From a virus, in the IMG/VR virus record IMGVR_UViG_3300022858_000345, positions 1-64,000 of that record: 64,000 nt of DNA; one strand, given 5' to 3'. The position numbers and the translations under genes are program-made. The notes under the pieces were generated by a model, which saw nothing but the letters and a program-made list of their open reading frames with translations, was not told the origin of the DNA and made no database searches. Shown here piece after piece: positions 16,025 through 47,411 of this stretch. How positions within the stretch are numbered: position 1 is the stretch's first letter; the number at the start of each line of letters is the position of its first letter.

Positions 16025-16538
16025 AGATAGCATAGTTATTGCTTGCGACCCTAGTTTTTGTAGTACAGGAATTGCTATTTTTAAAGGGGAAGATTTAATT
16101 CATAAATGTACTATAAAAACTAGTACTAAAGATGAGTATAGGTTTGAGATTATAGGAATAGAGTTTAAAAAGCTTTTAGCTTATTTTCCAACTGTATTAG
16201 TAATAGAGTCACAGTATATTAGCCCAAAATTTTCTAATATAAATACATTAAGGGTTGTGGAGGTAAAAGGATTTATGGAAGGGCTTTTTATGTATCATTG
16301 CTTAGAATCAGGAATTAAACCTTTAATGGTAGAAGTAGCTCCAAAGGAAGCTAAGAAATTTATAGGAGTTATTGGTAATAATGACACTAAGAAGCAGGTA
16401 CAGGTTTTAGTAGAGCAGAGATTTCCTGAACTAAAAAAAGTTAATCAAGATGAAGCAGATGCAATTGCTATTGGATTAACAGGTATTGAAAAGCTTAATT
16501 CTCAGCAATTATTACAAAAATATAAAGATAAAATATGA
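16008..16538 (+). CDS. ruvC: RuvC-like Holliday junction resolvase
   Basis: IACDPS..STGIA, LVIE, P.EAKK...G...K.QV, DEADAIAIG. Confidence 0.85.
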   Translation: MSLLNKDSIVIACDPSFCSTGIAIFKGEDLIHKCTIKTSTKDEYRFEIIGIEFKKLLAYFPTVLVIESQYISPKFSNINTLRVVEVKGFMEGLFMYHCLESGIKPLMVEVAPKEAKKFIGVIGNNDTKKQVQVLVEQRFPELKKVNQDEADAIAIGLTGIEKLNSQQLLQKYKDKI

Positions 16539-20914: not shown

Positions 20915-21253
20915 ATGAATCATTTACAAACAAATGAAGTAGGAAAGGAGTTCGGAGAGCTAGTAGATAATACTATTGCTCTACAAAAACAAATTAAAAA
21001 ATTAGAGAATGGAAAACTAGCGGAGTTGAAAAAGGAAATTGGAGGGCATAAAGAAGAATTAAGAAAAGAAATGGATAGAAGAGGTATAAATAAATTAGAT
21101 GGAGGTAAAGGTAATGTTTTATTAATAGATAGAAAAGGGTCTATAGTAGTAGATTTTGATGATATTATGAAAGATTTAGGAGTATCTGATTTGAAAAAAT
21201 ACCAGACTCAAAAAGAAGGATCACAATTCATTAAAGTAACAGCTAATGTCTAA
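20915..21253 (+). CDS. hypothetical coiled-coil protein
   Basis: ORF overlapping the polymerase start. Confidence 0.6.
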   Translation: MNHLQTNEVGKEFGELVDNTIALQKQIKKLENGKLAELKKEIGGHKEELRKEMDRRGINKLDGGKGNVLLIDRKGSIVVDFDDIMKDLGVSDLKKYQTQKEGSQFIKVTANV

Positions 21254-24200
21254 GTTCATTGTAAAAAATAAGGAGGAGTATAAAAAGATTATAGATAAAA
21301 TTTTAGTTTCATCTTCTGAATATGTGGCTTTAGATACAGAGACAGAAGAATTTGATAAGGAGAAGACGCACGCATTTGATTTAGGGTTGTATGGAATAGG
21401 GTTATATGGGAAGGACTTTAAGATTTTTATTCCTGCTAAATTTGTAAAGAAAGACTTTCAGAAGGTTTTAGATAAATTTATTTTTATTTTTCATAACGCA
21501 AAATTTGATTTATTAATTTTAGAAAAGCACGGGTTTAATATAGATAAGTTAAAATATCACGATACTTTAATAATGAGTTGGTTACTAAATGAAAATAGAC
21601 GCTCACATAAATTAAAAGATTTAGCTCATTCGGTTTTAAGAGTTAAAGAAGAAAAGATTATTAAATATGGGGATGTTATTAAAAAGCCTATATTAGAGGA
21701 GTATGGTATGTTTCCTGAGGAATTTAGAATGGATTTGGCTAGGTGGATGATAAAGTTAGGGCTTTATTGTATAGATGATTGTACTTATACATATAAGTTA
21801 TTTTTTAAATTTAAACCTAAACTTGAAGAACAAAGTATATGGAGTATTTATGAAAGATTAGAATTAGAAACAGTAAAAGTTTTAATGTATATGGAATTGA
21901 GAGGAATAAAAGTAAATTGTAAGTATTTGGAAAAATTAGGAAAGAAAATTGAAACTGAGCTAATTCAGATTCAGGCAGATATTTGGAAAGGAGCGGGAAA
22001 AGAGTTTGATATAAATAGCCCAAAACAACTATCTCAGGTTTTATTTACTGAAAAAGGTTTTAAGTTAACAGATGATTATAGAACACCAACGGGGGCTTAT
22101 TCTACTAATGAAGCGGCTTTGAAGTATTTAAAAGAGGCGTACCCTAAAGATGAAGTGTTAGGGGGTATTTTAAAATATCGGGAATTATTTAAGCTACACA
22201 GTGCTTTTATTGTAGGGCTTTTAAGCAAACAAAGAGATGGAGTTATACATACTTCATTTAAACAACATGGAACAGTCACAGGTAGGCTTTCATGTGTAGC
22301 TAAAGATACTCCTATTTTAATATTAGAGGGGCATGTGCCTATTTCAAAAATAGACTTGCATAATAAGAACCACCAATATACAATAGGTAGCGGAGGGGAG
22401 TTAAGAAAGATAAAGAATTTAATATTTAATGGGTATGGAAAATTGTATGATGTTAAAACAGGAGATTCAAAGCTTAGATGTTCAGGAGACCACAGATTGT
22501 GGACAAGTTCTGGGTGGCGGAAAGCTGAAGATTTGCGAGAGGGAGATAAAGTATTCTTTAATAGAAGCTCCTTTAAAGTTCAAGGATTTGGGGTTGGGGA
22601 GAATAATATTAGACGAAAACAGTTTTGTGCTTTTAAGAATAAAGGAGAAGTTGACTCATCAAAAGATACGTCAGCTATCAAACAATGTTATAAAAAGAAG
22701 GTGGATACTTTTATCTCAAAAAGTTTATTTAAAAAAATACGGGAAAGATTTAAAAAAGATTCACAAGATAAATCTAAGTCTTGCGGCGTTGGGAAACAAA
22801 AATGGAAAGGGGAAAGGGAAAGTTTCTTTAGACGCAAAACAACTATTAGAGAAAGTTCAGATGGGAAAAAGTATAGGGAGGATAGCAAAAGAGATGCATT
22901 CTACAGAATTTATAGTGAAGTCAAATCTTATGTTGTTAGGTATGCCATTAAGGTATGCAAAAACCCCAAAGCAAGTAGGCACTTGGAGCAAAGAAGATGT
23001 CAGGTTGGTAGAGAAAATTTTTCCAGAGTTTTTAGAAATAGCAAAGAAATTCAAGAAGAACCCCGCGGAATTTTTAGACTTAGTATATGGAAAAGTGTTA
23101 GATACTTACAAAATTTTATGGTTATTAAAAAAATTGGGGGGTTTGCATGGGCATTATATGGAAACTGGGGCTATAGAGAAATCTCATATATGTTGGGGAA
23201 CGAACAGTTCAGCCAATACTTTATTAGCGAGGGAGTTAAGAATGCAGAGTATAAAGCACATGAGAGAATTCCCTATTGGAAAAAATTATTCTGTAGATTT
23301 TTATTTCCCGATTTCAAATTTAATGGTGGAATTAGATGGAAAACACCACGAAACAGATATAAAAACTTTAGAGAGGGACAAAGAGAAAGAGAAAATTATA
23401 AAAAAGATGGGGATTCGGTTAAAGAGATTTATGTCTACGGAGGGGAAAAACCCAAAATTGCTGTTAAAGAAAATCAAGAAGTTACTATAGATAGCATTGA
23501 ATATATAGGTAGAGGGGAATTATGGGACTTAACAGTAGATGGAGATTCTTCATATATTACAGAAGGGCTAATTAGTCATAATTGTAGTGCTCCTAACTTA
23601 CAACAGTTACCTAGAAGGGATGATGAGTATGATATTAGAAAGGCTTTTATACCTAGAGAAGGGTATACATTTGTTATTTCAGACTTATCTCAAATAGAAT
23701 TAAGGATAGCAGCTTCTATCAGTCAAGACCCTACTATGCTTAAGATATTTAATGAAGGTGGAGATATACATGGGGAGACCGCTAAACTGCTCGATTGTGA
23801 AAGAGTAATAGCTAAACAAATTAATTTTGGAATTTTATACGGCACCGCTGCTTTTGGAATGTCAAAAGGTTTAGAAGCCAAAGGAGTGAAGCTAGATGTT
23901 AAAGAAGCAGAGAAGTTTATTAATAGATATTTCTCTAAGTTTAAAAAATTAGAGATACTTATAGAGCAAGCTAAAAATACTTTGAGAAAAAAATACGCAA
24001 TTACTACTGTTTTTAATAGAAAAAGAAGATTCCCAAAATATGCAGAAGCCAGAAAAAATAGAGATTGGAAGTTAGTAGCTCACTGTGAAAGGCAAGCTAT
24101 AAATTCTATTATTCAGGGAAGTGCTGCTGATATTATTAAAGTTCAAATGAGAAATTTAAGTAGGGAGTTACCTAAATATGGAGCGTATCTTTTAGTTCAG

Positions 24201-24347
24201 GTGCACGATGAAGTAATTTGTGAAGTTCCTAAGGAAAAAGCTGAGGAAGTTTTAAAGATTGTAGTAGATATTATGGAAAATTCTTATCATCTTAAAGGGG
24301 TTCCAATAGTGGCTAATGGATTTATTAGTGAGGTATGGAAGAAGTAG
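21246..24347 (+). CDS. polA: family A DNA polymerase with 3'-5' exonuclease, containing an intein
   Basis: ALDTET, HNAKFD, YCIDD exonuclease; TGRLS|CSAPNLQ; DLSQIELR; R..AK.INFGILYG; QVHDE. Confidence 0.95.
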   Translation: MSKFIVKNKEEYKKIIDKILVSSSEYVALDTETEEFDKEKTHAFDLGLYGIGLYGKDFKIFIPAKFVKKDFQKVLDKFIFIFHNAKFDLLILEKHGFNIDKLKYHDTLIMSWLLNENRRSHKLKDLAHSVLRVKEEKIIKYGDVIKKPILEEYGMFPEEFRMDLARWMIKLGLYCIDDCTYTYKLFFKFKPKLEEQSIWSIYERLELETVKVLMYMELRGIKVNCKYLEKLGKKIETELIQIQADIWKGAGKEFDINSPKQLSQVLFTEKGFKLTDDYRTPTGAYSTNEAALKYLKEAYPKDEVLGGILKYRELFKLHSAFIVGLLSKQRDGVIHTSFKQHGTVTGRLSCVAKDTPILILEGHVPISKIDLHNKNHQYTIGSGGELRKIKNLIFNGYGKLYDVKTGDSKLRCSGDHRLWTSSGWRKAEDLREGDKVFFNRSSFKVQGFGVGENNIRRKQFCAFKNKGEVDSSKDTSAIKQCYKKKVDTFISKSLFKKIRERFKKDSQDKSKSCGVGKQKWKGERESFFRRKTTIRESSDGKKYREDSKRDAFYRIYSEVKSYVVRYAIKVCKNPKASRHLEQRRCQVGRENFSRVFRNSKEIQEEPRGIFRLSIWKSVRYLQNFMVIKKIGGFAWALYGNWGYREISYMLGNEQFSQYFISEGVKNAEYKAHERIPYWKKLFCRFLFPDFKFNGGIRWKTPRNRYKNFREGQRERENYKKDGDSVKEIYVYGGEKPKIAVKENQEVTIDSIEYIGRGELWDLTVDGDSSYITEGLISHNCSAPNLQQLPRRDDEYDIRKAFIPREGYTFVISDLSQIELRIAASISQDPTMLKIFNEGGDIHGETAKLLDCERVIAKQINFGILYGTAAFGMSKGLEAKGVKLDVKEAEKFINRYFSKFKKLEILIEQAKNTLRKKYAITTVFNRKRRFPKYAEARKNRDWKLVAHCERQAINSIIQGSAADIIKVQMRNLSRELPKYGAYLLVQVHDEVICEVPKEKAEEVLKIVVDIMENSYHLKGVPIVANGFISEVWKK
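22356..22384 (+). promoter_or_regulatory. internal promoter for the nested endonuclease
   Basis: TTGCAT-N17-TACAAT within intein coding DNA, upstream of ATG 22429. Confidence 0.65.
22429..23490 (+). CDS. nested +1-frame DUF559/Vsr-like endonuclease inside the polymerase intein
   Basis: HTH-like middle; C-terminal REFPIGKNYSVDFYFP..NLMVELDGKHH...RD.EKE..IKKMGIRLKRF; exact start uncertain. Confidence 0.85.
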   Translation: MGMENCMMLKQEIQSLDVQETTDCGQVLGGGKLKICEREIKYSLIEAPLKFKDLGLGRIILDENSFVLLRIKEKLTHQKIRQLSNNVIKRRWILLSQKVYLKKYGKDLKKIHKINLSLAALGNKNGKGKGKVSLDAKQLLEKVQMGKSIGRIAKEMHSTEFIVKSNLMLLGMPLRYAKTPKQVGTWSKEDVRLVEKIFPEFLEIAKKFKKNPAEFLDLVYGKVLDTYKILWLLKKLGGLHGHYMETGAIEKSHICWGTNSSANTLLARELRMQSIKHMREFPIGKNYSVDFYFPISNLMVELDGKHHETDIKTLERDKEKEKIIKKMGIRLKRFMSTEGKNPKLLLKKIKKLL

Positions 24348-37407: not shown

Positions 37408-38007
37408 ATGGCAGGAAGAATAGAAATATCGGTAGCGTTAGTAGAAAAAAGAAGGGAGAGAGCCTCCGCATTAAAAATGAAGGGTCTCAGTATTAATAGT
37501 ATTATGAATCTTGTTAATCAAGAAGCTACTATAGAGCAATGGGGAGTGGTTAGTAGGAGGACTATAATGAGAGATATAGCAGCTTATTTTAGTAAGAATA
37601 AATTAACAGGTGTTGAAGCTAATGAGGAGATGTCTATGTTAAGAGATGCTTATATTTCACAGTATGAGGGTCTTATAGAAAAGATGCACATTAAATTATC
37701 TACTAAACAAAATTGGAAACCATTTGAAGAGTTTGCAGCTATGGATATTTTAAGAAGGACTCTAGCGGATTTTGCTGAGATAATGAACTGGAATGAAGGA
37801 AGAAAGAATACAAATATACTTTTCCAGCAAAATAACATTTTAACTCCTTACGAAAACGCAGCAAATATAGTGAACAAGCCTAAAGAATTAAAAGCTATTT
37901 CAGCTCTTTGCGATATGATGCTAGATAAGAGACCTATTGATGAAATTGGAGTTGAGGTGCTAGGTGATAGCTATATAAAAGAAGATACAAATGACAACAA
38001 TACTTAA
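37408..38007 (+). CDS. putative terminase small subunit (HTH)
   Basis: N-terminal HTH (RRERA..L..KGLS...VSRRTIMRDI); overlaps the terL start. Confidence 0.6.
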   Translation: MAGRIEISVALVEKRRERASALKMKGLSINSIMNLVNQEATIEQWGVVSRRTIMRDIAAYFSKNKLTGVEANEEMSMLRDAYISQYEGLIEKMHIKLSTKQNWKPFEEFAAMDILRRTLADFAEIMNWNEGRKNTNILFQQNNILTPYENAANIVNKPKELKAISALCDMMLDKRPIDEIGVEVLGDSYIKEDTNDNNT

Positions 38008-40861
38008 AAATCCAAAGTTAGCGGATAATCTTTCAGAAAGGACTGTTGTCTTTCTGCAAAATCATATTGCTAGTTTATCACATACTCAAAAAGACGCTTT
38101 ATTATTAAAGGATTGGGCTGATAATTCAAATAAGATTTGGAAATACCCAAGAGTGTGTTTTGATACCTTTATTGATAGCCCTCAGTATTTAGGGCTAGTG
38201 AAAGAAGGGGGTGCAAGTTTAGTTTATCCAGAAATTAGAAATATATGTAATGCTGTTATAGATGGAGACTATAGAGAGCTTGTAATGGTTGCTGGTATTG
38301 GGGGAGGTAAAACAACTGTATTAGAGCTATTAGCTTGCTATTACGCCTATGAACTACTTTGCTACTGGGACCCGCATGGGTATTTTAGTTTACTATCAGA
38401 TAAACCCATTACTCTAATTAATATGGGTACTACTGCTACTCAGGCTTTAGATAATGCCTTTTCAGGTATTAAGTCTTTTATTAAAAAAAGCCCATTCTTT
38501 ATGGGTCACACACCAATTATATTACAAGGTAGTATAAGATTCCCAAAACAAAACATACTTTTACTTTCAGGTAATAGTAAAGCTACCACACCTTTGGGAT
38601 ATAATATTTATTATGCAGGATTAGATGAAGCGGCTTTTTATATGGATAATGATAATAAGTGTGTAGCTGAGGATATATATACAGCATTGCAAAGACGTAT
38701 TGTATCCAGGTTTAAAGATAAAGGATTAGCTCTAATGATTAGTTCGCCTCAGTATGATGGAGATTTTGTTATGAGAAAATTACAGGAAGCCCAACAAGTA
38801 CCTAAACAAATTTTCTCTACTCATTCGCCTACTTGGAAACTAAAACCTATAAGTGAGGAAGATAAAAAAGATATATTTTATCTTAACTCTAAGACTAATA
38901 AGATTGTAGATACTATTTCACCAGCACAGACTATTTCTAAAATAGGAGACCCGTTTGAGGTAGGAGCTACTATTTGGGAAATACCTAAGCAGTATAAGAG
39001 AGATTTTATAGTTGATCCTGAAAAAGCTAAAAGAGATTATGCGGCAGTACCAGGGAAAGCTATTGATGCCTTTATGCCTCAAATAGATTTAATAGAGAAA
39101 ATGTTTACTGACAGGGAAAGTCCTTTACAAGCAAACGGAAGTTATACTTTTCCTGATGAAGACCCTTTAAGAGCTAATTATTATATTCATGTGGATTTAG
39201 CTTTAAACAGACATAATAAAGGAGATTTTGCTGGTCTAGCTATGTGCCATTTTGAGGGATTTGAAGAAGACAAAGAGCTAGGGGAACGTAGAAAGAAAGT
39301 AGTAATAGATTTAGCGGAACGAATAGAGGCTGGAGCTGGTGGTGAAATAGATTTTGAAGAAGTTAGAAAAAAGATTTATGTTTTAAAAACAATGGGATTT
39401 GCTATTAAGAAAGTTACTTTAGATGCTTTTCAGTGCTGTCGTCGGAACACTAAAATATTAACTATTGAAAATAGTGTGGCGTCACTATATAATAAAGGTA
39501 GTATCAATAACCAAAAAGATATGCCTTTAAAGAATGAATCAAAAGTACCTTTACTAGCGGGGGAAGAAAAAAACATACAGGATTTAAAAGAAGGTGATTA
39601 TGTATATAGTCTGGACAGAGATAAAAGTATTAAAGCGGGGAGGGTTAAGGCGGTATGGTGTTCAGGGCATAAGGAAATATATAGAGTTCATATAGATAAT
39701 GGAAAGTTTGTAGATTGTTCGGATAATCATCCATTTATGTTACGAGATGGGAGTTATGTTAGGGCGGATAAATTACAAGAGGGTGCTAATTTAATGCCTT
39801 TATATAGACAAAGAGAAAGGGTTGGTTATGAAAAAACATTTAATCCTAAAACTAAATCTTATAGACATACTCATAGATTAGTTATGGGGGCTTCTGGTAG
39901 GAGCAATATAGTCCATCATAAAGATGAAAATAAATCAAATAATATTCCAGATAACTTAGAGATAATGAAGAACTCAATTCATTGTAAGCATCATTGGACA
40001 GAGGAGAGGAAAAGATTAACTAGTAAGCAAAGAAGTATATCGAATAAATTAATAAAGCCTCGTTTAGGGACTAAAACTAGTGGGCAGGGAAGAAAGAATC
40101 TTTCAGAAGCGAGTAAAAAGATATGGCAAGACCCTAAACATAGAGCAAAAATGATGCTTAGAGATACGGCACATCATGGGGAGGACCATCCACAATATGA
40201 TAAAAATTTAACTATAGATATTTTACAGCAATATAAAGATAAAAAATTAGTAGAGGTATGTCGTATATTAAATACAACTCCTCGTAAAGTACGAAATCGT
40301 ATTAATACTTTAGGGTATAAGACTTGGAAAGAGTTTAGTAGTTCTCCTGTAAATCATCGAGTAGTTAAAGTAGAAAAATTAAATATTCAAGACGAAACTT
40401 GGGATATTGAAATAGAGGGAACTCATAATTTTGCTACTTCGGCGGGAGTATTTGTCCATAATTCAGTTGATACTATTCAGATTTTAAAGAAAAAAGGAAT
40501 AAGAGCAGAGTATTTATCAGTAGATAGAGGGATAGAGCCTTATCAGACTCTAAAAGAATGTATTTATGGGGGTAATATACAATGTCATAAAATGGATGTA
40601 CTTTTAGATGAGCTAAGTAGGCTAGAAATAACTAAAGCCCAAAAGGTTGACCATCCGCCTGGTAGTTCTAAAGATGTAGCAGATGCGGTATGCGGAGCGG
40701 TATATATGTGCGTAAAAGAATCTGGAGAAGAGATGGGAATGTCAGCAGGTGCTTATTATCCTAAAAATGAGGGAGAAAGTGCATCTATGGGAGTGCCAGA
40801 GAGTAAAGAGGATTATTATAGACGATTAGAAGAATTAAATAGTAAAGGATTATTGGCATAA
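37991..40861 (+). CDS. terL: terminase large subunit containing an intein
   Basis: GIGGGKT, LDEAAF, ISSP, HVDLA RNase H-like nuclease, DHPPGSSKDVADA. Confidence 0.92.
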   Translation: MTTILKNPKLADNLSERTVVFLQNHIASLSHTQKDALLLKDWADNSNKIWKYPRVCFDTFIDSPQYLGLVKEGGASLVYPEIRNICNAVIDGDYRELVMVAGIGGGKTTVLELLACYYAYELLCYWDPHGYFSLLSDKPITLINMGTTATQALDNAFSGIKSFIKKSPFFMGHTPIILQGSIRFPKQNILLLSGNSKATTPLGYNIYYAGLDEAAFYMDNDNKCVAEDIYTALQRRIVSRFKDKGLALMISSPQYDGDFVMRKLQEAQQVPKQIFSTHSPTWKLKPISEEDKKDIFYLNSKTNKIVDTISPAQTISKIGDPFEVGATIWEIPKQYKRDFIVDPEKAKRDYAAVPGKAIDAFMPQIDLIEKMFTDRESPLQANGSYTFPDEDPLRANYYIHVDLALNRHNKGDFAGLAMCHFEGFEEDKELGERRKKVVIDLAERIEAGAGGEIDFEEVRKKIYVLKTMGFAIKKVTLDAFQCCRRNTKILTIENSVASLYNKGSINNQKDMPLKNESKVPLLAGEEKNIQDLKEGDYVYSLDRDKSIKAGRVKAVWCSGHKEIYRVHIDNGKFVDCSDNHPFMLRDGSYVRADKLQEGANLMPLYRQRERVGYEKTFNPKTKSYRHTHRLVMGASGRSNIVHHKDENKSNNIPDNLEIMKNSIHCKHHWTEERKRLTSKQRSISNKLIKPRLGTKTSGQGRKNLSEASKKIWQDPKHRAKMMLRDTAHHGEDHPQYDKNLTIDILQQYKDKKLVEVCRILNTTPRKVRNRINTLGYKTWKEFSSSPVNHRVVKVEKLNIQDETWDIEIEGTHNFATSAGVFVHNSVDTIQILKKKGIRAEYLSVDRGIEPYQTLKECIYGGNIQCHKMDVLLDELSRLEITKAQKVDHPPGSSKDVADAVCGAVYMCVKESGEEMGMSAGAYYPKNEGESASMGVPESKEDYYRRLEELNSKGLLA
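39434..40462 (+). mobile_element. intein (343 aa) with an in-frame HNH endonuclease
   Basis: CCRRNTKI, CSDNHPF, THRLV...VHHKDENKSNN.PDNL, TWDIEIEGTHNFATSAGVFVHN, +1 residue Ser. Confidence 0.95.
39465..39523 (+). promoter_or_regulatory. internal promoter and start codon within the intein N-terminus
   Basis: TTGAAA-N17-TATAAT (39465-39493), then AACCAAAAAGAT-ATG (39521, in frame). Confidence 0.7.
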
Positions 40862-41106: not shown

Positions 41107-42471
41107 ATGAAAAAACCAAATGTTATCCAAAAAGCTTACAAAAGCTTAACTGAGCTATTCTCTTTTACTAAAGATGGTCAAAAGAAAGCTATTGCTACGT
41201 TAGGAGGAACAGGTGTTTCTTACTTTGGAAGATTACAAGACCCTTCAAAAACAGGGCTAAAAAAACCAACGAAAGTAACTTTTAATCAGTTACGGGAAGC
41301 AGCTAGGTATGATGCTATTATCAGAATTTGTGTAAATGTTATTAAGAAATCAGTTAGTCAAGCAGAGTGGGCTATAATCCCAAAACAGGAGAGAAAAGAA
41401 GTTAATAAGGCTCAAGTAGATCAAGCTACTAATTTATTTGAAACGATTAATAATCGAGGAGAGAATTTAAGACAAGTATTAGATATGGTATTAGAAGATT
41501 TATTAGTATTAGATGCTGGAGTAATTGAGAAAGTTTATAATGCTAAAGGAGAGATAGTAGAATTAAATGCTGTAGACGGAGCTACTATCAGACCTAAAAT
41601 GGATAAGTATGGAGATTTAGACCCGACTAGTGCTTATGTGCAAGTGATAGGAGACAAAGTAGTAGCTGAATTTGCATTAAATGAATTAATTTATATGGTG
41701 CAAAGTCCGCAAAGCGATATACGATTGTATGGGTATGGGATGTCGCCTATTGAGAGTATTTTATTACAAGTACAGGCAGCTTTAAATGCTGATCTGTATA
41801 ATGCTGAAATGTTTTCTAAAGATAATATCCCTCCAGGTATGTTAGATTTAGGGGATATGTCCCAATCAGAAGCACAACAATTTATATCTGTATGGGATGC
41901 CACAGTAGTCGGTAGTACTCAGAAGTTAAAATTCCTTTGGGGTGGAGGAGAAAAAAATAATAAAAAGTATATTCCTTTTAACCAAAATAATAAAGATATG
42001 CAGTTTGTGGAATATACAGATTGGCTATCAAGAATTAAATTAGCTACTTATGGTCTTACAGGAATGGACGCAAATATTACTCAAGATGTTAATAGGGCTA
42101 CAGCAGGTGTTCAAGAATCTGTTACAAGTTCTAGAGGTGTAGGAAGTATTTTTAAGTTAGTTGAGGAGTATATTAATAGAGAGATATTTATGCCAATGGG
42201 ATGGGACGATATACAGTTTAAATTTCAAAAGGCTTTAAATATTTCCGAAAAGAAACAGCAAGCAGAAATAGATAAAATTTATGTAGAGGCAGGAATTCTA
42301 GACCCAGCAGAAGTAGCTATCAGAGAAGGATTTGAAATACCTGAACAAGATGAAGAAGAGATAGATTACTTAGCACCAGCTCCCGAAGAAAAGATTGAAG
42401 GTAAAGAAGATGTGTTAGTGCCAGAAGAAAAGAAGTCTCACTCACATAATTTTAAACCTTTATATGAATAA
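41107..42471 (+). CDS. portal protein
   Basis: follows terL; L.AVDGATIR, YGMSPIE, KDMQF.E, NRATA motifs. Confidence 0.9.
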   Translation: MKKPNVIQKAYKSLTELFSFTKDGQKKAIATLGGTGVSYFGRLQDPSKTGLKKPTKVTFNQLREAARYDAIIRICVNVIKKSVSQAEWAIIPKQERKEVNKAQVDQATNLFETINNRGENLRQVLDMVLEDLLVLDAGVIEKVYNAKGEIVELNAVDGATIRPKMDKYGDLDPTSAYVQVIGDKVVAEFALNELIYMVQSPQSDIRLYGYGMSPIESILLQVQAALNADLYNAEMFSKDNIPPGMLDLGDMSQSEAQQFISVWDATVVGSTQKLKFLWGGGEKNNKKYIPFNQNNKDMQFVEYTDWLSRIKLATYGLTGMDANITQDVNRATAGVQESVTSSRGVGSIFKLVEEYINREIFMPMGWDDIQFKFQKALNISEKKQQAEIDKIYVEAGILDPAEVAIREGFEIPEQDEEEIDYLAPAPEEKIEGKEDVLVPEEKKSHSHNFKPLYE

Positions 42472-44968
42472 ACTTGTACAAAAACAAGTAGAAGAAGATG
42501 CAGAGTTTTTTGATACTTTAGAAAGTACTCCTGAGTTTAAAAGAATGAAGAAGTTAATTGAGAAAGCTTTATTAGACCAATGGAATGATGTTCTTTTTTC
42601 AGGAATAATAAATACTATGTTTAATAAGTATAAGGATTTTATTGTAAAGGGAGGCAAGAAGATACAGATTAAAAAGACAGTTGCTAAAGCTACTAATGAA
42701 GAAGAATTAGATGAAGCCATATTGGATAGCTTACAGCAGGATAAATTTTTAGTAGGGGAAAAGGGTATGAAGATGAAACTTTATTTAGCTTTTCTATTAA
42801 CTTTAGTAAAAACTAATATGAAATCTATTGGTAGTTATTATGATTTTAGAAAGAATATGAATACTTTCTTAAAAACAATGGCAAATAAAGGAGGGCAAGA
42901 CATAGTATCTGATATAAAAACGCCTAAGCCTATTAAATTTAGATTATCTAATGTTGCTCTAAAAGCAAAAATAACAAAAAGAGTAAATGTATTAATAAAA
43001 GATTTAGACAAAGTTACTAGAAAAATTTTAGTGAGACATTTAGCTTTAGGTATTAAGAATGGAGAAACAAAAACACAAATAATTAAAAGGCTACAGAAAA
43101 CAGGAAAGCAATTTTCAAAGACTAGAGCAAAAAGGATAGTAGATACAGAAACAGAAGCGGCAGCAGAATTTATGAGATATGAGACCGCTAGATTAAATGG
43201 AGTTACTACGAGAACTTGGGAAACAGCGGGAGATGATAGAGTTTGTTTTCCAAAAGATACTCAAGTAGTTACTGATAGAGGGGAGAGGGGGATACAAGAA
43301 CTTAAAATAGGAGATAAAGTATTGACTCGAAACGGTTATAGAAAAGTTACTGCAACTAATAAAAGAAAATATAGTAAGAGTATGACTAGTATAACTACAA
43401 CTAAGGGGAAGCTAGTGTGTACTAGCGATCATCCGATTTGGGAAAAAGGTTATGGTTGGTTATGTGCGGGAGATTTCAATGTTGGAGATTTCGTTAAGTC
43501 TAAGGAGAATAAATATTTCAGGGTGGATAAGGTGAGTAATTTCAGTATCAAGTATGCGTACAACTTTCCATCCATTTTTTATAAGAAAATTATTTTTCCT
43601 TTTATCTCTTTGTGCATTAGAATGCCAATATGCTCCATCTGCTTCGAGAGCAATTTTATATTTAGGCAAAAGAAAGTCAACACTATATCTTCCGACTTGT
43701 CCTTCTTGGATAAAGGGAATACCAAGTTTGTACAGACTAAGCCTGAAGAGCTTTTCAAGAGAAGTTTCTCCAGTAAATTTACGGTAGCACGAGAAAGAGC
43801 AAAAACGCCTAATATCTTTTGCATAAGGCATTACTCTAAATTGTTTAGCACATTGCTCACAAGTTTTATAAGTAGGAGGACGATAACATTTTTCAGAGCA
43901 ATATGTTTGTATTCCTATTTTATCTCTAAAAACTTTTTTACATCTTTTACAAATAATGTTTCCCATATTTATCCAACGACAGGCGAGGCTACAAACTGTA
44001 TACCTATGAGAAATACTTTTATTAATTTGAAAAGATTTAGTACATACAGGGCATATTTTAGTAACCTTTTTAGGAGTTCTAGCTTTTTTATAACATTTAG
44101 AAGAGCAGTACTTTTCATTTCTGGCTACTCGACTTTTGTTAAGATAAAAGGATTTATTACACCCCTTACAGAGGAGAATCTTACCTTGTTTAGTGCTTTT
44201 GTGATAACATTTAGGAGAACAATAGGCATTTTTTCCTCTTATTTTCTTTTCTTTTTTAATGGCTTTACCACATTGATAACAGATATATTGGAACATGCCA
44301 CACAATTAAGGATTGATTTACTTATAGTATATAGTAGATTGTTAGGCAAATCAATATTTGTTTATGACATACAGGTAGAAGAATACCCAGAATTTTATGC
44401 AAATGGGATACTTGTACATAATTGTCCTATATGTGCTCCCTTGGATGGAGTTACTAAAAAAATGAGTCGTAATTTTAATTCAGGAGATTTTTCTGGTAAG
44501 TATCCACCAGCTCATGCAGTATGTAGATGCTCAGTTACTTATGATATAGAAGGTAATGAGGCGAGTAATTTTGTATTAAAAAGAGGGGTATTTGAAACTA
44601 TTGATGATTTGTTTACAAAAGCGAAACAATTAATTTTTTATACTCCTATAAAGACTACTGCAATAAGTGTTGTTAATCCTAATGCGGTATGGGCAGGAGG
44701 CAAAACTTTAATAGGTCCCGATAGAGGTATTAGTAAGTTTATTGAAGATATAAAAATATTTAGAGATTATAAGAGAAATTTAAAAAATATATTAATAATG
44801 AAAGAAGGGAAATTGGTAGTGGATATATTAAGAGAACAATCAATTTTAACTTTTGGAGTGGATAAGATTTTAGTAGATGCAAGAGATAAATTAACAGATG
44901 AAGGATTTGTTCAATTAATCAGGAGTTTTGGAGTTACTAAGAAGATACCAAGTAAAAATATAACTTAA
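42464..44968 (+). CDS. MuF / SPP1 gp7-like head morphogenesis protein containing an intein
   Basis: RAKRIV.TE, W.TAGDDRV|CPIC..LDG, PPAHAVCRC. Confidence 0.9.
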   Translation: MNKLVQKQVEEDAEFFDTLESTPEFKRMKKLIEKALLDQWNDVLFSGIINTMFNKYKDFIVKGGKKIQIKKTVAKATNEEELDEAILDSLQQDKFLVGEKGMKMKLYLAFLLTLVKTNMKSIGSYYDFRKNMNTFLKTMANKGGQDIVSDIKTPKPIKFRLSNVALKAKITKRVNVLIKDLDKVTRKILVRHLALGIKNGETKTQIIKRLQKTGKQFSKTRAKRIVDTETEAAAEFMRYETARLNGVTTRTWETAGDDRVCFPKDTQVVTDRGERGIQELKIGDKVLTRNGYRKVTATNKRKYSKSMTSITTTKGKLVCTSDHPIWEKGYGWLCAGDFNVGDFVKSKENKYFRVDKVSNFSIKYAYNFPSIFYKKIIFPFISLCIRMPICSICFESNFIFRQKKVNTISSDLSFLDKGNTKFVQTKPEELFKRSFSSKFTVARERAKTPNIFCIRHYSKLFSTLLTSFISRRTITFFRAICLYSYFISKNFFTSFTNNVSHIYPTTGEATNCIPMRNTFINLKRFSTYRAYFSNLFRSSSFFITFRRAVLFISGYSTFVKIKGFITPLTEENLTLFSAFVITFRRTIGIFSSYFLFFFNGFTTLITDILEHATQLRIDLLIVYSRLLGKSIFVYDIQVEEYPEFYANGILVHNCPICAPLDGVTKKMSRNFNSGDFSGKYPPAHAVCRCSVTYDIEGNEASNFVLKRGVFETIDDLFTKAKQLIFYTPIKTTAISVVNPNAVWAGGKTLIGPDRGISKFIEDIKIFRDYKRNLKNILIMKEGKLVVDILREQSILTFGVDKILVDARDKLTDEGFVQLIRSFGVTKKIPSKNIT
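43460..44296 (-). CDS. nested antisense multi-Zn-finger DUF559/Vsr-like endonuclease inside the MuF intein
   Basis: five CxxC...CSxxC fingers; ETSLE...QE.QVGRYSVDFL...KIALEADG.YWH...RD.RK...L...GWKVVRI; ATG 44296 (TTG 44305 also possible). Confidence 0.9.
   Translation of the reverse strand: MFQYICYQCGKAIKKEKKIRGKNAYCSPKCYHKSTKQGKILLCKGCNKSFYLNKSRVARNEKYCSSKCYKKARTPKKVTKICPVCTKSFQINKSISHRYTVCSLACRWINMGNIICKRCKKVFRDKIGIQTYCSEKCYRPPTYKTCEQCAKQFRVMPYAKDIRRFCSFSCYRKFTGETSLEKLFRLSLYKLGIPFIQEGQVGRYSVDFLLPKYKIALEADGAYWHSNAQRDKRKNNFLIKNGWKVVRILDTEITHLIHPEIFILLRLNEISNIEISRT
44326..44354 (-). promoter_or_regulatory. antisense promoter of the nested endonuclease
   Basis: minus strand TTGATT-N17-TATACT, 30 nt upstream of ATG 44296. 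Confidence 0.7.
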
Positions 44969-44977
44969 CATAACAAT

Positions 44978-45265
44978 ATGGAAGACTACAGGTGTTTAAA
45001 TTGCAAAACCCTACTTTACAAAGCTGCGGGAGATATAGATGTTGAAATTATATGTCCAAAATGTCGGAGGGTTAACTACCCCAACAGAGGAGACCAAGGA
45101 GTTGGGTTGAGAGGAATTGACTTTTTTAATAAAGCCAGACAGCTCTCATGCAATGGTTGTAGTAGACCATTATTAAGTTTTATGGGGGTAGGTTTTGTTG
45201 AAACTAAATGTAGATATTGCAAAACTGTAGTAGAGTATGGTAGTGTGAAGAATGTAAAAAGTTAA
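44978..45265 (+). CDS. tandem Mu Com-like zinc-ribbon regulator
   Basis: RCLNCKTLL....VEIICPKCRRVN pattern present twice. Confidence 0.7.
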   Translation: MEDYRCLNCKTLLYKAAGDIDVEIICPKCRRVNYPNRGDQGVGLRGIDFFNKARQLSCNGCSRPLLSFMGVGFVETKCRYCKTVVEYGSVKNVKS

Positions 45266-45281
45266 GAAAGAGAAAAAAGTA

Positions 45282-45458
45282 TTGCTATTTATTATAAATA
45301 TAAATATACTGAACTCGTAAAGTAGGGCAAAGCCCCGAGGACCTCAAGAAGGCCACAAGCATAAAGTTATATAATACTGTTATAAAGCTATTCTGTACGT
45401 GGCCTTTTCCTTTATATAAGGTAAGGCAAGAATATTTCAATATTTTAAGCCCACCTTT
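45282..45458 (+). promoter_or_regulatory. head-operon promoter and structured leader
   Basis: TTGCTA-N17-TATACT (45282-45310); GGGC/GCCC hairpin; AAGGCCAC/GTGGCCTT stem. Confidence 0.6.
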
Positions 45459-47411
45459 ATGTTTAAATTATCAATACCGATTACAAAGTCATTTCAGAAG
45501 AAGAATGGCAAATTTATTGTAGAAGGAATTGCTTCAGACCCAACAATAGATAGAGATGAAGAAAGATTTGATGAAGAGGCAATAGCAAAAATGGTTAAGG
45601 GAGTAAATGGAGGTAGTTTACCTATTAGAATTGAGCATGAAGATAAAGTTTATACAGATGTAGGTACTTGGACAAAAGCGTCAATGGTTGATGATAAATT
45701 ATATGTTAAAGGGGAAATAGATACTGAGATGTCACTAGGAAAAGATATTTCAGTTCTTTTAAAAAGAGGCACTCCTTTATCATTATCCGTTGGTGGTAAG
45801 GTTCTAGACGCAGTTTATGAATATGTAACTGAGTTAGGAAAGAATATCAAGATATATAAAGATGTAATTCTTGAAGAAATATCAGTAGTTAAAAACCCTT
45901 CTAATTATAATACTTCCCTAGCAATGGCTAAGTCTGTTGATTGGGAGAAAAGTAAAGACGAGGTTGAATACACTACACAAGCACAGCAATTGATTGATAC
46001 ATATAAGAGTATAAGTAAAATTGATGCTGATAAATTTGTTGAAGTATCTAAAGACGAGGAAGAAGTAAAAGCGACAAAAGATAGCTTTAATACTTGGATG
46101 GCTGAAGTAGAGCCTAAAGTGATTAGTCTTTTTAAAGATTATTATGAAGACGAATGTTATTGTGAAGATGAGTATAGAGGATTAACTCCTGAGGATTTAA
46201 AACTTATTGCTCAGTTGACTACTATATTAAGTGAAGTTGATTTACCTGATGATAATACATGGCCTGCAATATTTGATGATGATGCTTATTGGGAGAATTT
46301 AACAGAAGAGATGCAAATTGTTTTATTTAATAGAACAATGACAATGCCTCATCATAATACAGACTTTAGTGTTAATAAAGAGTTATTACTTTATCAATTA
46401 AAGAAAGTCGTTGACGGAGTTGGTTGGTATACACCTAAGGAATATACAGCTATCGTTAATCATTTATATATACATTTAAAAAAGTTACAAATTGTTAAAT
46501 CTAAAACTATGCTTGAAAAACCTAAAGACAATATGAGCGATATTAAAAAACATATCGCAGAACAAGATATCAGTAAGGAGCAATTAAACTTGTTACAAAG
46601 TTGCCATAACTTCTCCGTAGGCAAAACAACAGTAGTACCAAGTAACGAAGGCAAAGAAATGACAAAGGAAGAAATTGCCAAATGTTTTGAAGCTTATAAG
46701 GAACTGTTGAAAAGCCCACATTTTAATCAAATTATTAACCAATCAGAAACTATGGATAAAACAACTAAAAAGGTTGAAGAAAAAACTGAAGTAGAAGAAA
46801 CTCCTGTAAAGAAGGAAGAAACTACTGAAGAAAAAACTGAAACCACTGAGGTAGAAAAAGCTGACTCTGCAACAGAGGAAGAAGAAACTACTGAAGAAAC
46901 TTCTGAAGAAAAAGCTGACTCTGAAACAGAGGAAGAAGAAACTAAAGAAGAAGAAGTTGAGGAAGAAAAGGAAGAGGAAAAAGAAGAAGAAGTTGAGGAA
47001 AAGGAAGAAGAAACTACTGAGGAAGAAGCTCCAGTAGAAGATGCTGAAGTTGAGAAAAAACTTACAAAAAGCATCACAGCGAACGTGGAAAAAAGTATGG
47101 TAGCAAGGTTTGATAAATCTCTCAAGAAATTGACAGAAATTGTAGACGTTCTTGTTACAAAGTCAGAAGATGTTACTGCTACAGAGGACATTAACGGTCT
47201 TAAAAAAGACATAGGAGCTATTAGTGAGACTTTAGAATTAATGTCTAAAGCTTCATTAGGTCGTAAATCTTACGCTACTAACCAAGTGGTTGAAAAATCA
47301 TTTACAGAAGGAGCGTTAAATAAGACTGAGCAAGAACAAATTGATGCTGGCATGAAAAAAGGCGACACTTTTACTGAAGCTTATAAAGCAGTATTGGCTA
47401 AAAGAGTCTAA
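45459..47411 (+). CDS. HK97-type prohead protease fused to an acidic scaffold region
   Basis: VEGIASD..IDRD.E, EH, LSVGG, LEEISVV.NPSN; Glu-rich C-terminal part. Confidence 0.85.
   Translation: MFKLSIPITKSFQKKNGKFIVEGIASDPTIDRDEERFDEEAIAKMVKGVNGGSLPIRIEHEDKVYTDVGTWTKASMVDDKLYVKGEIDTEMSLGKDISVLLKRGTPLSLSVGGKVLDAVYEYVTELGKNIKIYKDVILEEISVVKNPSNYNTSLAMAKSVDWEKSKDEVEYTTQAQQLIDTYKSISKIDADKFVEVSKDEEEVKATKDSFNTWMAEVEPKVISLFKDYYEDECYCEDEYRGLTPEDLKLIAQLTTILSEVDLPDDNTWPAIFDDDAYWENLTEEMQIVLFNRTMTMPHHNTDFSVNKELLLYQLKKVVDGVGWYTPKEYTAIVNHLYIHLKKLQIVKSKTMLEKPKDNMSDIKKHIAEQDISKEQLNLLQSCHNFSVGKTTVVPSNEGKEMTKEEIAKCFEAYKELLKSPHFNQIINQSETMDKTTKKVEEKTEVEETPVKKEETTEEKTETTEVEKADSATEEEETTEETSEEKADSETEEEETKEEEVEEEKEEEKEEEVEEKEEETTEEEAPVEDAEVEKKLTKSITANVEKSMVARFDKSLKKLTEIVDVLVTKSEDVTATEDINGLKKDIGAISETLELMSKASLGRKSYATNQVVEKSFTEGALNKTEQEQIDAGMKKGDTFTEAYKAVLAKRV

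What the first reader, a model, noticed from the sequence alone, without database searches (positions are those of the whole stretch)
43244..44422. MuF intein hides an antisense five-zinc-finger Vsr-like endonuclease with its own promoter
The only convincing minus-strand gene in the window (44296->43460) lies entirely within this intein. It has five CxxC..CSxxC fingers plus a DUF559-like domain, and a minus-strand TTGATT-N17-TATACT promoter (44354-44326). The sense frame over it is F/I/S-rich, as expected for the reverse complement of Lys-rich codons, yet has no stop. Frameshifting cannot explain antisense coding, so this is the cleanest evidence of true dual coding. Its transcript would also be antisense to head-gene mRNA, so a regulatory effect is possible (inference).
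Basis: partly seen in the sequence, partly recalled or inferred. Interest (0 to 1): 0.9.

Follow-up and report, generated by a model that had tools for sequence, protein, structure and literature searches.

The report
Intein carrying a backwards homing-endonuclease gene
A self-splicing protein insert (intein) in a phage head-assembly gene carries, on the opposite DNA strand and codon for codon, an intact gene for the DNA-cutting enzyme that probably spreads it; the layout is real and kept by selection, but a 2025 preprint already described it in other phages.

Summary
The + ORF 42464-44968 is a MuF-like head gene. It is interrupted by a 393-aa class-1 intein (43244-44422). The - ORF 43460-44305 (281 aa) encodes five CxxC..CSxxC zinc modules plus an EDxHD/Vsr-like nuclease. 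Its best PDB match is I-Bth0305I.

The two frames share the same codon triplets, so a sense stop would be an antisense TTA, CTA or TCA. The nuclease gene uses none of these among 38 Leu/Ser codons (17.9 expected, P about 8e-13).

Of 81 related places, 40 show the same layout, with 0 such codons against 210.5 expected. The 40 non-embedded relatives show 283 against 267.

Protein-level selection acts on the nuclease frame. The roughly 244-aa sense "linker" is unconserved and predicted unfolded, so it is a read-through spacer and not a second functional protein. The promoter motif exists but is no commoner than chance. No RNA data were available.

Gosselin et al. (bioRxiv 2025) already reported antisense VSR-like endonucleases in full inteins of actinophage minor-capsid genes. 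This scan has also noted the layout on other genomes. It is therefore a new member of a known kind.

Additional result: intein-less (endonuclease gene beside it), full, split and mini states all occur at this one MuF site.

The parts
42464..43243 (+). N-extein of the MuF-like minor head / head-morphogenesis gene, ending ...AGDDRV
   Evidence: Pfam Phage_Mu_F aa 192-261, profile positions 6-78 of 112, 41.3 bits against cut-off 29.6. PHROG head-morphogenesis and portal families also match.
43244..44422 (+). Class-1 intein, 393 aa, with Cys1 ... His392-Asn393, followed by Cys+1
   Evidence: Sequence; Hint_2 above cut-off. C1, T60, H63, H392 and N393 are invariant in 21 of 21 aligned inteins. The AF2 model matches the gp41-1 intein 6qaz, E 1.4e-8, TMt 0.67.
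43244..43546 (+). Hint N-lobe (intein aa 1-101, blocks A and B)
   Evidence: pLDDT 88-95 for aa 1-100. The sense frame is the more conserved frame for aa 1-78.
43553..44284 (+). Sense-frame read-through linker (intein aa 104-347). It is the mirror image of the endonuclease codons.
   Evidence: pLDDT below 50 for aa 104-197 and 211-347. Sense-frame identity among relatives is 0.12-0.32, against 0.19-0.59 in the antisense frame. F is 16.4% and GRAVY is +0.20.
44351..44422 (+). Hint C-lobe (intein aa 370-393, blocks F/G, ...FYANGILVHN)
   Evidence: pLDDT above 90. The sense frame is dominant here, 0.56 against 0.24.
44423..44968 (+). C-extein of MuF, starting CPICAPLDG
   Evidence: Junction conserved in related loci. 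PHROG head-morphogenesis match to aa 655-700.
43460..44305 (-). Homing-endonuclease gene, 281 codons from TTG 44305. The likely start is ATG 44296. The stop TAA is the mirror of sense Leu codon TTA at 43460-43462.
   Evidence: ORF. DUF559 E 1e-9. 39 homologues found, and those of like length (rows P0002-P0033) are 36-53% identical. AF2 mean pLDDT 89.2. All 38 listed genes of the window start with ATG.
43787..44281 (-). Five CxxC..CSxxC zinc modules (endonuclease aa 9-173), the presumed DNA-binding array
   Evidence: Cysteines of modules 2-5 are invariant or at least 90% conserved in 20 aligned proteins; module 1 is present in 13 of 20. PHROG 1271 E 2.2e-16.
43511..43780 (-). EDxHD / Vsr-like nuclease domain (endonuclease aa 176-265)
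   Evidence: Profile search of PDB: 3r3p_A (I-Bth0305I) E 1.2e-15 over profile positions 176-265. Foldseek 3r3p_B E 1.1e-5, TMt 0.74, then Vsr 1cw0. E221, D223, H228 and D234 are invariant in 20 of 20.
44326..44354 (-). Promoter-like TTGATT-N17-TATACT, lying within the DNA that encodes intein blocks F/G
   Evidence: Found by the scan (9 of 12 matches), but the count of such sites is not above shuffles, 5 against 6.4 +/- 2.7. Function not shown.

Best explanation
The feature is a composite mobile element. A class-1 intein sits at a conserved site of the MuF-like head gene (...DDRV|C..C...). Its interior holds a homing-endonuclease gene of free-standing type, with five zinc modules plus an EDxHD/Vsr-like nuclease. 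That gene runs backwards on the opposite strand, on the same codon triplets.

Shown:
- Both ORFs are intact.
- The endonuclease frame is the one under purifying protein selection across the interior.
- The host frame is kept open only by never using TTA, CTA or TCA in the endonuclease gene.
- The sense product of the interior is an unconserved, probably unfolded loop of about 244 aa between the two Hint lobes.

Inferred:
- The MuF precursor is translated straight through the loop, the Hint lobes associate, and the intein splices out. This restores ...DDRV-CPIC....
- The endonuclease is made separately from an antisense transcript that starts within the DNA encoding intein blocks F/G.
- In mixed infections it cuts intein-less MuF alleles at or near the insertion site, and repair copies intein plus endonuclease gene into them.

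The codon-aligned phase is the one in which stop avoidance costs only synonymous choices (two of six Leu codons and one of six Ser codons). That would explain why all 40 of the 40 embedded copies use that phase.
For: Anatomy and domains.

Codon avoidance in the window: 0 of 38 Leu/Ser codons against 17.9 expected, P 8.2e-13.

Recurrence: of 81 places examined (80 loci fetched through the endonuclease, plus the window), 40 have the whole endonuclease ORF inside a codon-aligned opposite-strand open frame of 420 aa or more. Those 40 have 0 TTA/CTA/TCA against 210.5 expected. Another 40 non-embedded places have 283 against 267.0 expected. One place (L057) was ambiguous and set aside.

Host ORFs: 20 of the 39 embedded loci were scanned. 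All 20 carry Hint or Intein_splicing. In 9 of 20 Phage_Mu_F is recognised and ends at profile position 78 (71 in L032), directly before the intein.

Junctions...DD(R/E)(V/T)|CFPAGT... and ...NGILVHN|CxxC recur across the embedded loci. Of the 39 loci examined, 5 gave no boundary and 4 (L024, L026, L031, L042) were given a wrong N-terminal boundary by the pattern.

Selection: among 496 pairs of 32 non-identical embedded genes, amino-acid identity is 0.405 in the endonuclease frame and 0.224 in the sense frame. It is higher in the endonuclease frame in 495 of 496 pairs. Per-site differences at endonuclease codon positions 1/2/3 are 0.481/0.431/0.660.

Folds: endonuclease mean pLDDT 89.2, best PDB match I-Bth0305I. 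In the sense intein the Hint lobes have pLDDT above 88 and the linker below 50; the Hint fold matches the gp41-1 intein.

A set found through the intein junction and not through the endonuclease (80 loci, of which 33 are MuF-hosted). These 33 include several near-identical loci and some contigs already in the first set:
- 25 of 33 are full inteins of 383-445 aa with both frames open.
- 6 of 33 are mini-inteins of 129-162 aa without the gene.
- 2 of 33 are split.
- 0 of 33 have a full-length linker with a broken endonuclease ORF.
Against: - No transcript, protein, splicing or cleavage data exist for this uncultured phage.
- The promoter motif is not above chance, and there is no Shine-Dalgarno sequence. 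This phage's genes generally lack one, however.
- A hydrophobic loop of about 244 aa (GRAVY +0.20) inside a Hint domain could impair folding or splicing. That it does not is inferred from conservation alone.
- No close relative of this phage's MuF extein was found, so recent homing of this particular copy cannot be shown.
- The first set of 80 loci was found through the endonuclease itself, so it is biased toward places that keep the gene. The second, junction-based set only partly corrects this. Its search pattern required G[IV]LVHNC, and only the best 80 of 435 relatives were kept.
- The extein HMMs were built from 20 of the embedded loci, so their matches to those loci are circular.
Confidence: 0.85

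Rival explanations
1. The antisense endonuclease gene is an inactive relic or very recent passenger. Only the sense frame matters, and the ORF is intact by recency and not by function.
For: No expression data exist. The homing-cycle model predicts that endonucleases decay after fixation. Mini-inteins at the same MuF site exist, 6 of 33. One of them (L097) still holds a remnant matching only positions 222-272 of the endonuclease profile.
Against: The 281-codon ORF is intact in DNA of 32.5% GC. All catalytic-motif residues and zinc ligands of modules 2-5 are conserved. The endonuclease frame is the more conserved in 495 of 496 pairs, with third-position excess. Among 33 junction-ascertained MuF inteins, 0 have a full linker with a broken ORF.
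Confidence: 0.07
2. True two-function dual coding: the sense 'linker' peptide is itself a functional domain, for example a membrane-active or regulatory segment of the excised intein.
For: It is translated in every precursor molecule. It is unusually hydrophobic. AF2 draws some helices (aa 160-210 and 330-367), though at low confidence.
Against: Sense-frame identity among relatives is about half that of the antisense frame throughout aa 94-348. pLDDT is below 50. The few conserved sense residues (MP..I.F, EVN) are the mirror of the endonuclease catalytic motif. When the endonuclease gene is absent the linker is absent too, as in the mini-inteins of 129-162 aa.
Confidence: 0.04
3. The gene is not read through. 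MuF is made as two pieces joined by a split intein (a 'fractured gene'), or it is a pseudogene.
For: Exactly this split form exists in relatives. In L034/L106 and L103 the sense frame stops after about 140 intein residues, a separate ORF begins before the C-lobe, and the endonuclease gene lies antisense between them.
Against: In the window the sense frame has no stop over 393 intein codons, and the three mirror-stop codons are absent at P about 8e-13. The split relative L034 shows no avoidance, with 9 observed against 11.0 expected.
Confidence: 0.02
4. The main role of the antisense unit is regulatory: its transcript represses or times head-gene mRNA.
For: An antisense transcript would necessarily pair with MuF mRNA. 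Free-standing relatives also lie convergent with MuF.
Against: Nothing in the data requires it. Conservation is at the protein level of the endonuclease. Mini-intein and intein-less MuF alleles do without it.
Confidence: 0.02

Closest known systems
Inteins with anti-sense VSR-like homing endonucleases in actinobacteriophages (Gosselin, Arsenault & Gogarten, bioRxiv 10.1101/2025.01.02.630785; I read the outline with abstract, sections 8 and 15, and word-search passages)
   Same: A full (unsplit) intein with a VSR-like/EDxHD endonuclease ORF on the antisense strand between the splicing blocks. Minor capsid (MuF-type) genes are among the hosts. The authors propose origin by invasion of an intein by a free-standing endonuclease gene. 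A cultured example seen here is Gordonia phage Malisha gene 5, which lies between the portal and scaffold genes and has the DUF559 match antisense to it.
   Different: This copy is in an uncultured phage of 32.5% GC, where stop avoidance is far more demanding. The words 'promoter' and 'codon usage' have 0 occurrences in that text. I also did not see there the exact codon register, the three-codon avoidance, or the series of intein-less, full, split and mini states at one MuF site.
I-Bth0305I and the EDxHD family of homing endonucleases (Taylor et al. 2011, PMC3239194, passages read; Dassa et al. 2009, PMC2677866, abstract and passages)
   Same: Vsr-like nuclease core, with 3r3p the best sequence-profile and fold match. 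The order is an N-terminal DNA-binding region followed by a C-terminal nuclease. Family members occur free-standing, in introns and with inteins.
   Different: I-Bth0305I sits in a group I intron and binds DNA through NUMOD/helix-turn-helix motifs. Here the N-terminal region is an array of five CxxC..CSxxC zinc modules. The gene is also antisense inside a contiguous intein.
Fractured genes: split inteins with a free-standing endonuclease gene between the halves (Dassa et al. 2009, PMC2677866)
   Same: A Vsr-like endonuclease gene occupies the position between intein blocks N4 and C2. The sense Hint domain of the window resembles gp41-1, one of those inteins. Relatives L034/L106 and L103 are fractured MuF genes.
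   Different: In the window the host frame is unbroken, so cis-splicing is expected. The word 'antisense' has 0 occurrences in that paper.
Antisense or out-of-frame LAGLIDADG endonucleases in the cyanobacterial dnaX intein. Gorbalenya 1998 was not seen and is cited only within the preprints. Phillips et al., bioRxiv 10.64898/2026.09.14.751524: abstract and section 17 read.
   Same: The endonuclease is encoded in a frame other than the intein's. Purifying selection acts on the endonuclease frame and is relaxed on the overlapping intein frame.
   Different: Different nuclease family, host gene and organisms.
Canonical bifunctional inteins with an in-frame endonuclease domain
   Same: Same site logic and presumed homing cycle. 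One relative (L006) has a second intein in the same MuF gene with an in-frame DUF559 domain that is 35% identical to the window's nuclease domain.
   Different: Here the endonuclease is a separate polypeptide from a separate, opposite-strand transcript.

Membership tests
Class-1 intein (Hint superfamily) | Nucleophile (Cys/Ser/Thr) at intein position 1 and at +1 of the C-extein | tested here: met
   Cys at 43244-43246 and Cys at 44423-44425. C1 is invariant in 21 of 21 aligned inteins.
Class-1 intein (Hint superfamily) | Block B TxxH and a C-terminal His-Asn | tested here: met
   T60, H63, H392 and N393 are invariant in 21 of 21.
Class-1 intein (Hint superfamily) | Hint fold | tested here: met
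   Pfam Hint_2 29.9 bits against cut-off 28.4; Intein_splicing 30.6 bits is below its cut-off of 35.8. AF2 lobes have pLDDT above 88. Foldseek gp41-1 intein 6qaz E 1.4e-8, TMt 0.67.
Class-1 intein (Hint superfamily) | Protein splicing activity | not testable with these tools
   Inferred from conserved catalytic residues and from selection that keeps the frame open.
EDxHD / Vsr-like homing endonucleases | Vsr-like nuclease core related to I-Bth0305I | tested here: met
   Profile against PDB: 3r3p_A E 1.2e-15, Vsr 1cw0 E 0.012. Foldseek 3r3p_B E 1.1e-5, TMt 0.74. Pfam DUF559 above cut-off; Pfam Vsr below cut-off.
EDxHD / Vsr-like homing endonucleases | Conserved catalytic residues forming the composite motif E-D-x-H-D | tested here: met
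   E221, D223, H228 and D234 are invariant in 20 of 20 aligned proteins. Their equivalence to the Vsr catalytic residues is taken from the family description and from the alignment to 3r3p. I did not check it residue by residue on a structure.
EDxHD / Vsr-like homing endonucleases | N-terminal NUMOD / helix-turn-helix DNA-binding region, as in the prototype | tested here: not met
   The N-terminal 173 residues are five zinc modules. No NUMOD/HTH family appeared in Pfam. This is a feature of the prototype and not of the nuclease superfamily.
EDxHD / Vsr-like homing endonucleases | Site-specific cleavage of the element-less allele | not testable with these tools
   Inferred only.
Anti-sense VSR-like HEN inteins (Gosselin et al. 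2025) | Contiguous intein with the endonuclease ORF on the antisense strand between the splicing blocks | tested here: met
Fractured gene / naturally split intein (Dassa et al. 2009) | Host gene broken into two ORFs by a stop within the intein | tested here: not met
   No stop in 393 intein codons. Relatives L034/L106 and L103 do meet it.
Phage Mu F-like head morphogenesis protein (PF04233) | Match above the curated cut-off | tested here: met
   41.3 bits against 29.6, aa 192-261. The gene follows a 454-aa ORF (41107-42471) in the head-gene block. I did not scan that upstream ORF.

The most novel reading that the evidence does not exclude
This endonuclease lineage may be a specialist of one MuF site that shuttles repeatedly between two homes. 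One home is a free-standing position, convergent with and immediately 3' of an intein-less MuF gene. The other is the interior of an intein inserted at the site it presumably cuts.

If so, composite mobile inteins are assembled and taken apart by the same 'collaborative homing' route proposed for group I introns. The backwards orientation would then be inherited from the free-standing state. The three-codon avoidance would be a datable scar of residence inside an intein.

Supporting observations:
- 12 of the 41 non-embedded loci have an intein-less MuF gene directly beside the endonuclease gene on the opposite strand. In 9 both extein halves were recognised, and in 3 only one half (examples).
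- Free-standing and embedded copies interleave on the tree. L012/13 is sister to L014-16 at SH-aLRT 97. Well-supported branches force at least 3 changes of state.
- Free-standing L012/L013 still carry fewer mirror-stop codons than expected (5 against 10.3-12.2), and L013 has a 253-aa antisense open frame.
Probability: 0.4. Interest if true: 0.6.

Novelty: new member of a known kind. Interest (0 to 1): 0.4.

Why it matters
This copy is a clear, quantifiable case of selection keeping one stretch of DNA open to translation on both strands. In a genome where TTA makes up 60% of leucine codons, a 281-codon gene uses none.

The case shows how a selfish endonuclease gene can live inside an essential gene at almost no cost. 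The host only needs the frame to stay open, and the intein removes whatever the mirror-image codons spell.

In practice, the absence of TTA, CTA and TCA in a gene is a simple computational flag for hidden antisense read-through. Gene callers will usually annotate only one of the two ORFs.

One MuF site shows empty, full, split and mini forms. That gives a natural series for studying how inteins acquire endonucleases, lose them, and become split inteins, which are useful protein-engineering tools.

The basic architecture is already in print as a preprint, and this scan has noted it on other genomes, so the added value is breadth and mechanism rather than discovery.

Tried and rejected
Searches that gave nothing:
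- Nucleotide search of the MuF gene against 50,697 phage records: no match.
- Relatives of the N-extein in viral contigs: none. Intein-less alleles of this particular phage's MuF could therefore not be sought that way.
I obtained contexts of homologues with the search for related loci instead.

Sequencing runs:
- 24 runs were listed, all labelled salt lake metagenome and marked 'DNA?'. No RNA holder was listed.
- I laid contigs of four partial holders (X13-X16) on 41500-46000. They gave fragmentary, mostly identical pieces and no joint across the intein. This says nothing about expression or about the absence of intein-less alleles.

Ideas considered and dropped:
- Invertible-segment idea, in which the endonuclease would be in frame after inversion: only short A/T-rich inverted repeats flank the gene, the best being 20 nt at 85% complementarity. 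Dropped.
- Promoter claim: the motif is present but not enriched. Kept only as a candidate.
- Foreign codon usage as the cause of codon avoidance: rejected, because the gene's GC equals the window's and non-embedded relatives use the three codons at the expected rate.

Slips and their corrections:
- In the script the window row was taken on the wrong strand and is meaningless. Only the locus rows were used, and the window was handled correctly.
- In one search the N-terminal boundary pattern failed for 5 of 39 loci and gave wrong boundaries for L024, L026, L031 and L042. None of these was used in alignment A2.
- The first attempt to search with the whole-intein alignment failed for lack of a conserved stretch. 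A 60-residue junction alignment (A3) was used instead.
- Eight rows with matches under 180 aa were left out of the tree.

Literature:
- Five full-text searches were run.
- PMC8966425 and PMC4853749 were opened and proved irrelevant.
- PMC11855218 (out-of-frame HNH in a methylase gene) is related but not antisense.
- Supplements were closed. Supplemental Table 1 of the 2025 preprint may list comparable cases.


Full report
**What is there.** The window is part of a 72.6-kb viral record of 32.5% GC, estimated 74% complete. The + strand ORF 42464-44968 (834 aa) is a MuF-like head-morphogenesis gene: Pfam Phage_Mu_F scores 41.3 bits against a cut-off of 29.6, over aa 192-261. It is interrupted, directly after ...AGDDRV, by an intein that starts with Cys at 43244 and ends ...GILVHN at 44422. 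Cys+1 and the motif CPICAPLDG follow. The - strand ORF 43460-44305 (281 aa from TTG, with an ATG at 44296) lies wholly inside the intein. It encodes five CxxC..CSxxC modules followed by a DUF559 domain (E 1e-9).

**Is it more than chance?** The two frames use the same triplets, so a sense stop can arise only where the antisense gene has TTA, CTA or TCA. The window's other long ORFs use TTA for 60.3% and CTA for 10.6% of Leu codons, and TCA for 22.8% of Ser codons. The antisense gene has 19 Leu and 19 Ser codons and none of the three. That is 17.9 expected, with P(0) = 8.2e-13. Its GC (0.325) equals the window's, so a foreign composition is not the cause.

**The antisense product is a real protein of a known nuclease family.**
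- A word-indexed search of 5.8 billion proteins gave 39 hits. Those of like length (rows P0002-P0033) are 36-53% identical to the query.
- In an alignment of 20, the cysteines of modules 2-5 and the residues E221, D223, H228 and D234 are invariant or at least 90% conserved. The first module is present in 13 of 20.
- A profile of that alignment finds I-Bth0305I (3r3p) as the best solved relative (E 1.2e-15), then 3hrl, with E. coli Vsr far weaker at E 0.012.
- An AlphaFold model has mean pLDDT 89.2. Its best Foldseek match is again 3r3p (E 1.1e-5, TMt 0.74), followed by Vsr.
- I-Bth0305I is the prototype of the EDxHD homing endonucleases (Taylor et al. 2011, passages read). The window's protein differs from it in having zinc modules where the prototype has NUMOD/HTH motifs.

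**The sense product of the same DNA is not a conserved protein.**
- An AlphaFold model of the 393-aa intein, built with 21 aligned relatives, gives pLDDT 88-95 for aa 1-100 and above 90 for aa 370-393. It gives pLDDT below 50 for aa 104-197 and 211-347.
- The confident part matches mini-inteins, the best being gp41-1 (6qaz, E 1.4e-8).
- Along the element, the frame that is conserved among relatives switches. The sense frame dominates at intein aa 1-78 and 364-393. The antisense frame is about twofold more conserved across aa 94-348. The two frames are equal only around aa 79-93.
- Over 496 pairs of 32 non-identical embedded genes, identity is 0.405 in the endonuclease frame and 0.224 in the sense frame, higher in the endonuclease frame in 495 of 496 pairs. 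Differences concentrate at the endonuclease's third codon positions, at 0.660 against 0.481 and 0.431.
- The few conserved sense residues in the loop (for example MP..I.F) are the mirror of the endonuclease's E.DG.YWH motif.
Both frames are translated, but apart from stop avoidance each segment serves one frame.

**Recurrence.** A scan of viral contigs with the endonuclease alignment matched 592 stretches, and 355 encode a relative. The best 80 were kept.
- Counting the window, 40 of 81 places have the complete endonuclease ORF inside a codon-aligned opposite-strand open frame of 420 aa or more. These loci range from 0.34 to 0.73 GC.
- Those 40 contain 0 TTA/CTA/TCA codons against 210.5 expected from each locus's own codon usage.
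- The 40 places without such a frame contain 283 against 267.0 expected. One place (L057) was ambiguous and set aside.
- I scanned the host ORFs of 20 of the 39 embedded loci. All 20 carry Hint or Intein_splicing domains. In 9 of 20 Phage_Mu_F is recognised, and it always ends at profile position 78 (71 in one case), directly before the intein. Three are portal-MuF fusions.
- The junctions ...DD(R/E)(V/T)|CFPAGT and NGILVHN|CxxC recur.

**A set found through the intein junction.** The first set was found through the endonuclease and is biased toward keeping it. I therefore searched again with a 60-residue alignment of the intein C-lobe plus C-extein. This gave 521 stretches and 435 relatives, and 80 were kept. 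Of these, 33 are MuF-hosted. They include several near-identical loci and some contigs already in the first set:
- 25 have full inteins of 383-445 aa with the sense frame open and an aligned antisense open frame of 273-338 aa.
- 6 are mini-inteins of 129-162 aa without the gene. One of them (L097) keeps a remnant that matches only positions 222-272 of the endonuclease profile.
- 2 are split.
- None has a full-length loop with a broken endonuclease ORF.

When the gene goes, the loop goes.

**Other states at the same site.**
- In L013 and L027 the MuF gene is uninterrupted at the site. The endonuclease gene lies immediately downstream on the opposite strand, overlapping MuF's 3' end by about 20 nt.
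- Extein profiles find this convergent arrangement in 12 of the 41 non-embedded loci. In 9 both extein halves were recognised, and in 3 only one half. Two loci have a tandem arrangement, and 23 show no MuF in the flanks. The profiles were built from 20 embedded loci, so their matches to those loci are circular.
- In L034 the MuF gene is fractured. A portal-MuF-IntN ORF stops after about 140 intein residues. A 122-aa ORF begins before the C-lobe and continues into the C-extein. The endonuclease gene lies antisense between them and uses the three codons freely, 9 observed against 11.0 expected.
- On a quick maximum-likelihood tree of 73 endonuclease rows (8 short rows left out), embedded and MuF-adjacent free-standing copies interleave. 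L012/13 is sister to L014-16 at SH-aLRT 97. Well-supported branches force at least 3 changes of state, and parsimony gives 8. The tree is unrooted and many branches are weak, so the direction of change is not established.

**Mechanism (shown and inferred).** Shown: the anatomy, the selection regime, and the recurrence. Inferred:
- The precursor is translated through the loop and spliced in cis.
- The endonuclease is translated from a separate antisense transcript.
- It cuts intein-less MuF alleles near the DDRV|C junction and is copied in by repair.

The TTGATT-N17-TATACT motif at 44354-44326 is well placed, about 20-30 nt upstream of the start codons and within the DNA encoding blocks F/G. 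However, the region has 5 promoter-like sites against 6.4 +/- 2.7 in shuffles. The lack of a Shine-Dalgarno sequence is uninformative, because the window's genes generally have A/T-rich leaders without one. All 38 genes listed start with ATG, which favours ATG 44296 as the start. The codon-aligned phase is the only antisense phase in which every sense stop corresponds to a single antisense codon that has synonyms. That plausibly explains why all 40 embedded copies use it (inference).

**Comparison with what is known.**
- Gosselin, Arsenault and Gogarten (bioRxiv 2025; outline, sections 8 and 15 and passages read) report 'anti-sense VSR-like HEN' in full inteins of actinobacteriophages. Minor capsid proteins are among the hosts, and an HHpred link to 3R3P is given. 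They note that antisense LAGLIDADG endonucleases were described by Gorbalenya in 1998, a paper I did not see.
- A cultured example I could check is Gordonia phage Malisha gene 5.
- Phillips et al. (bioRxiv 2026; abstract and section 17 read) show the same selection asymmetry for an out-of-frame LAGLIDADG endonuclease in the dnaX intein.
- Dassa et al. 2009 described the Vsr-like family with split inteins.
- Earlier notes of this scan describe the same layout on other genomes, some citing the same preprint.

The window is therefore a new member of a known, recently described kind. Three things appear to go beyond the text I could read, and I could not see the preprint's supplements:
- the exact codon register with complete three-codon avoidance, quantified in a low-GC genome;
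- the breadth across uncultured phages;
- the coexistence of intein-less (with adjacent endonuclease gene), full, split and mini states at one MuF site.

**Verdict.** Novelty: new member of a known kind. Interest: 0.4.

Noticed in passing
window 16535-19351 (+), nested ORF 17214-17984 (+): A helicase gene (ResIII plus Helicase_C) carries an intein (Intein_splicing, aa 142-486). A 256-aa ORF on the same strand, offset by +1, encodes a DUF559 nuclease (E 4.8e-12). In the passages I read, the 2025 preprint reports same-strand out-of-frame endonucleases only of the endonuclease VII type. A same-strand out-of-frame DUF559/VSR-like one may therefore be unreported.
   Followed up: partly
window 21246-24347 (+), nested ORF 22429-23490 (+): A family-A DNA polymerase gene has an intein (Intein_splicing, aa 382-779). 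A nested 353-aa ORF on the same strand, offset by +1, has DUF559 (E 5.8e-9). Its nuclease domain also matched the antisense endonuclease weakly. This one phage thus has three inteins with DUF559 endonuclease genes in non-host frames.
   Followed up: partly
window 37991-40861 (+): The large terminase-sized ORF carries a fourth intein (Intein_splicing, aa 521-824, E 7e-18) with a weak in-frame HNH_3 match (E 7e-5, below cut-off).
   Followed up: no
L006:1601-5140 (-): A MuF gene has two inteins. The first holds the antisense endonuclease gene. The second has an in-frame DUF559 domain (aa 735-809) that is 35% identical to the window's nuclease domain. The C-terminus carries an ADP-ribosyltransferase domain.
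   Followed up: partly
L034:3668-7240 (same contig as L106); also L103: A fractured portal-MuF gene. The N part ends after about 140 intein residues. A separate 122-aa ORF supplies the intein C-lobe plus the C-extein. The endonuclease gene lies antisense between them, with no avoidance of the three codons. It may be a natural split intein in a structural gene.
   Followed up: partly
L097:2584-3069: A 162-aa mini-intein at the same MuF site retains only a remnant matching positions 222-272 of the endonuclease profile on the antisense strand. This suggests that mini-inteins arise here by internal deletion.
   Followed up: no
L013:2030-2941 and L027:3908-4732: Free-standing endonuclease genes beside intein-less MuF genes still have long aligned antisense open frames (253 and 255 aa). 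They also have fewer TTA/CTA/TCA codons than expected: 5 against 10.3 in L013 (and 5 against 12.2 in its near-copy L012), and 2 against 4.2 in L027 (5.2 in L028). This may be a residue of earlier residence in an intein.
   Followed up: partly
alignment A1, C-terminal tails; window 43460-43540: Several homologues end with a conserved LQP(S/P)L(F/L) tail. This is the mirror image of the conserved sense 'GW' motif after intein block B. At the 3' end of the endonuclease gene, the intein frame therefore dictates the endonuclease sequence.
   Followed up: partly
window, 38 gene starts: Genes have A/T-rich leaders without a Shine-Dalgarno sequence, and all 38 listed start with ATG. This is a hint about the host's mode of translation initiation.
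   Followed up: no
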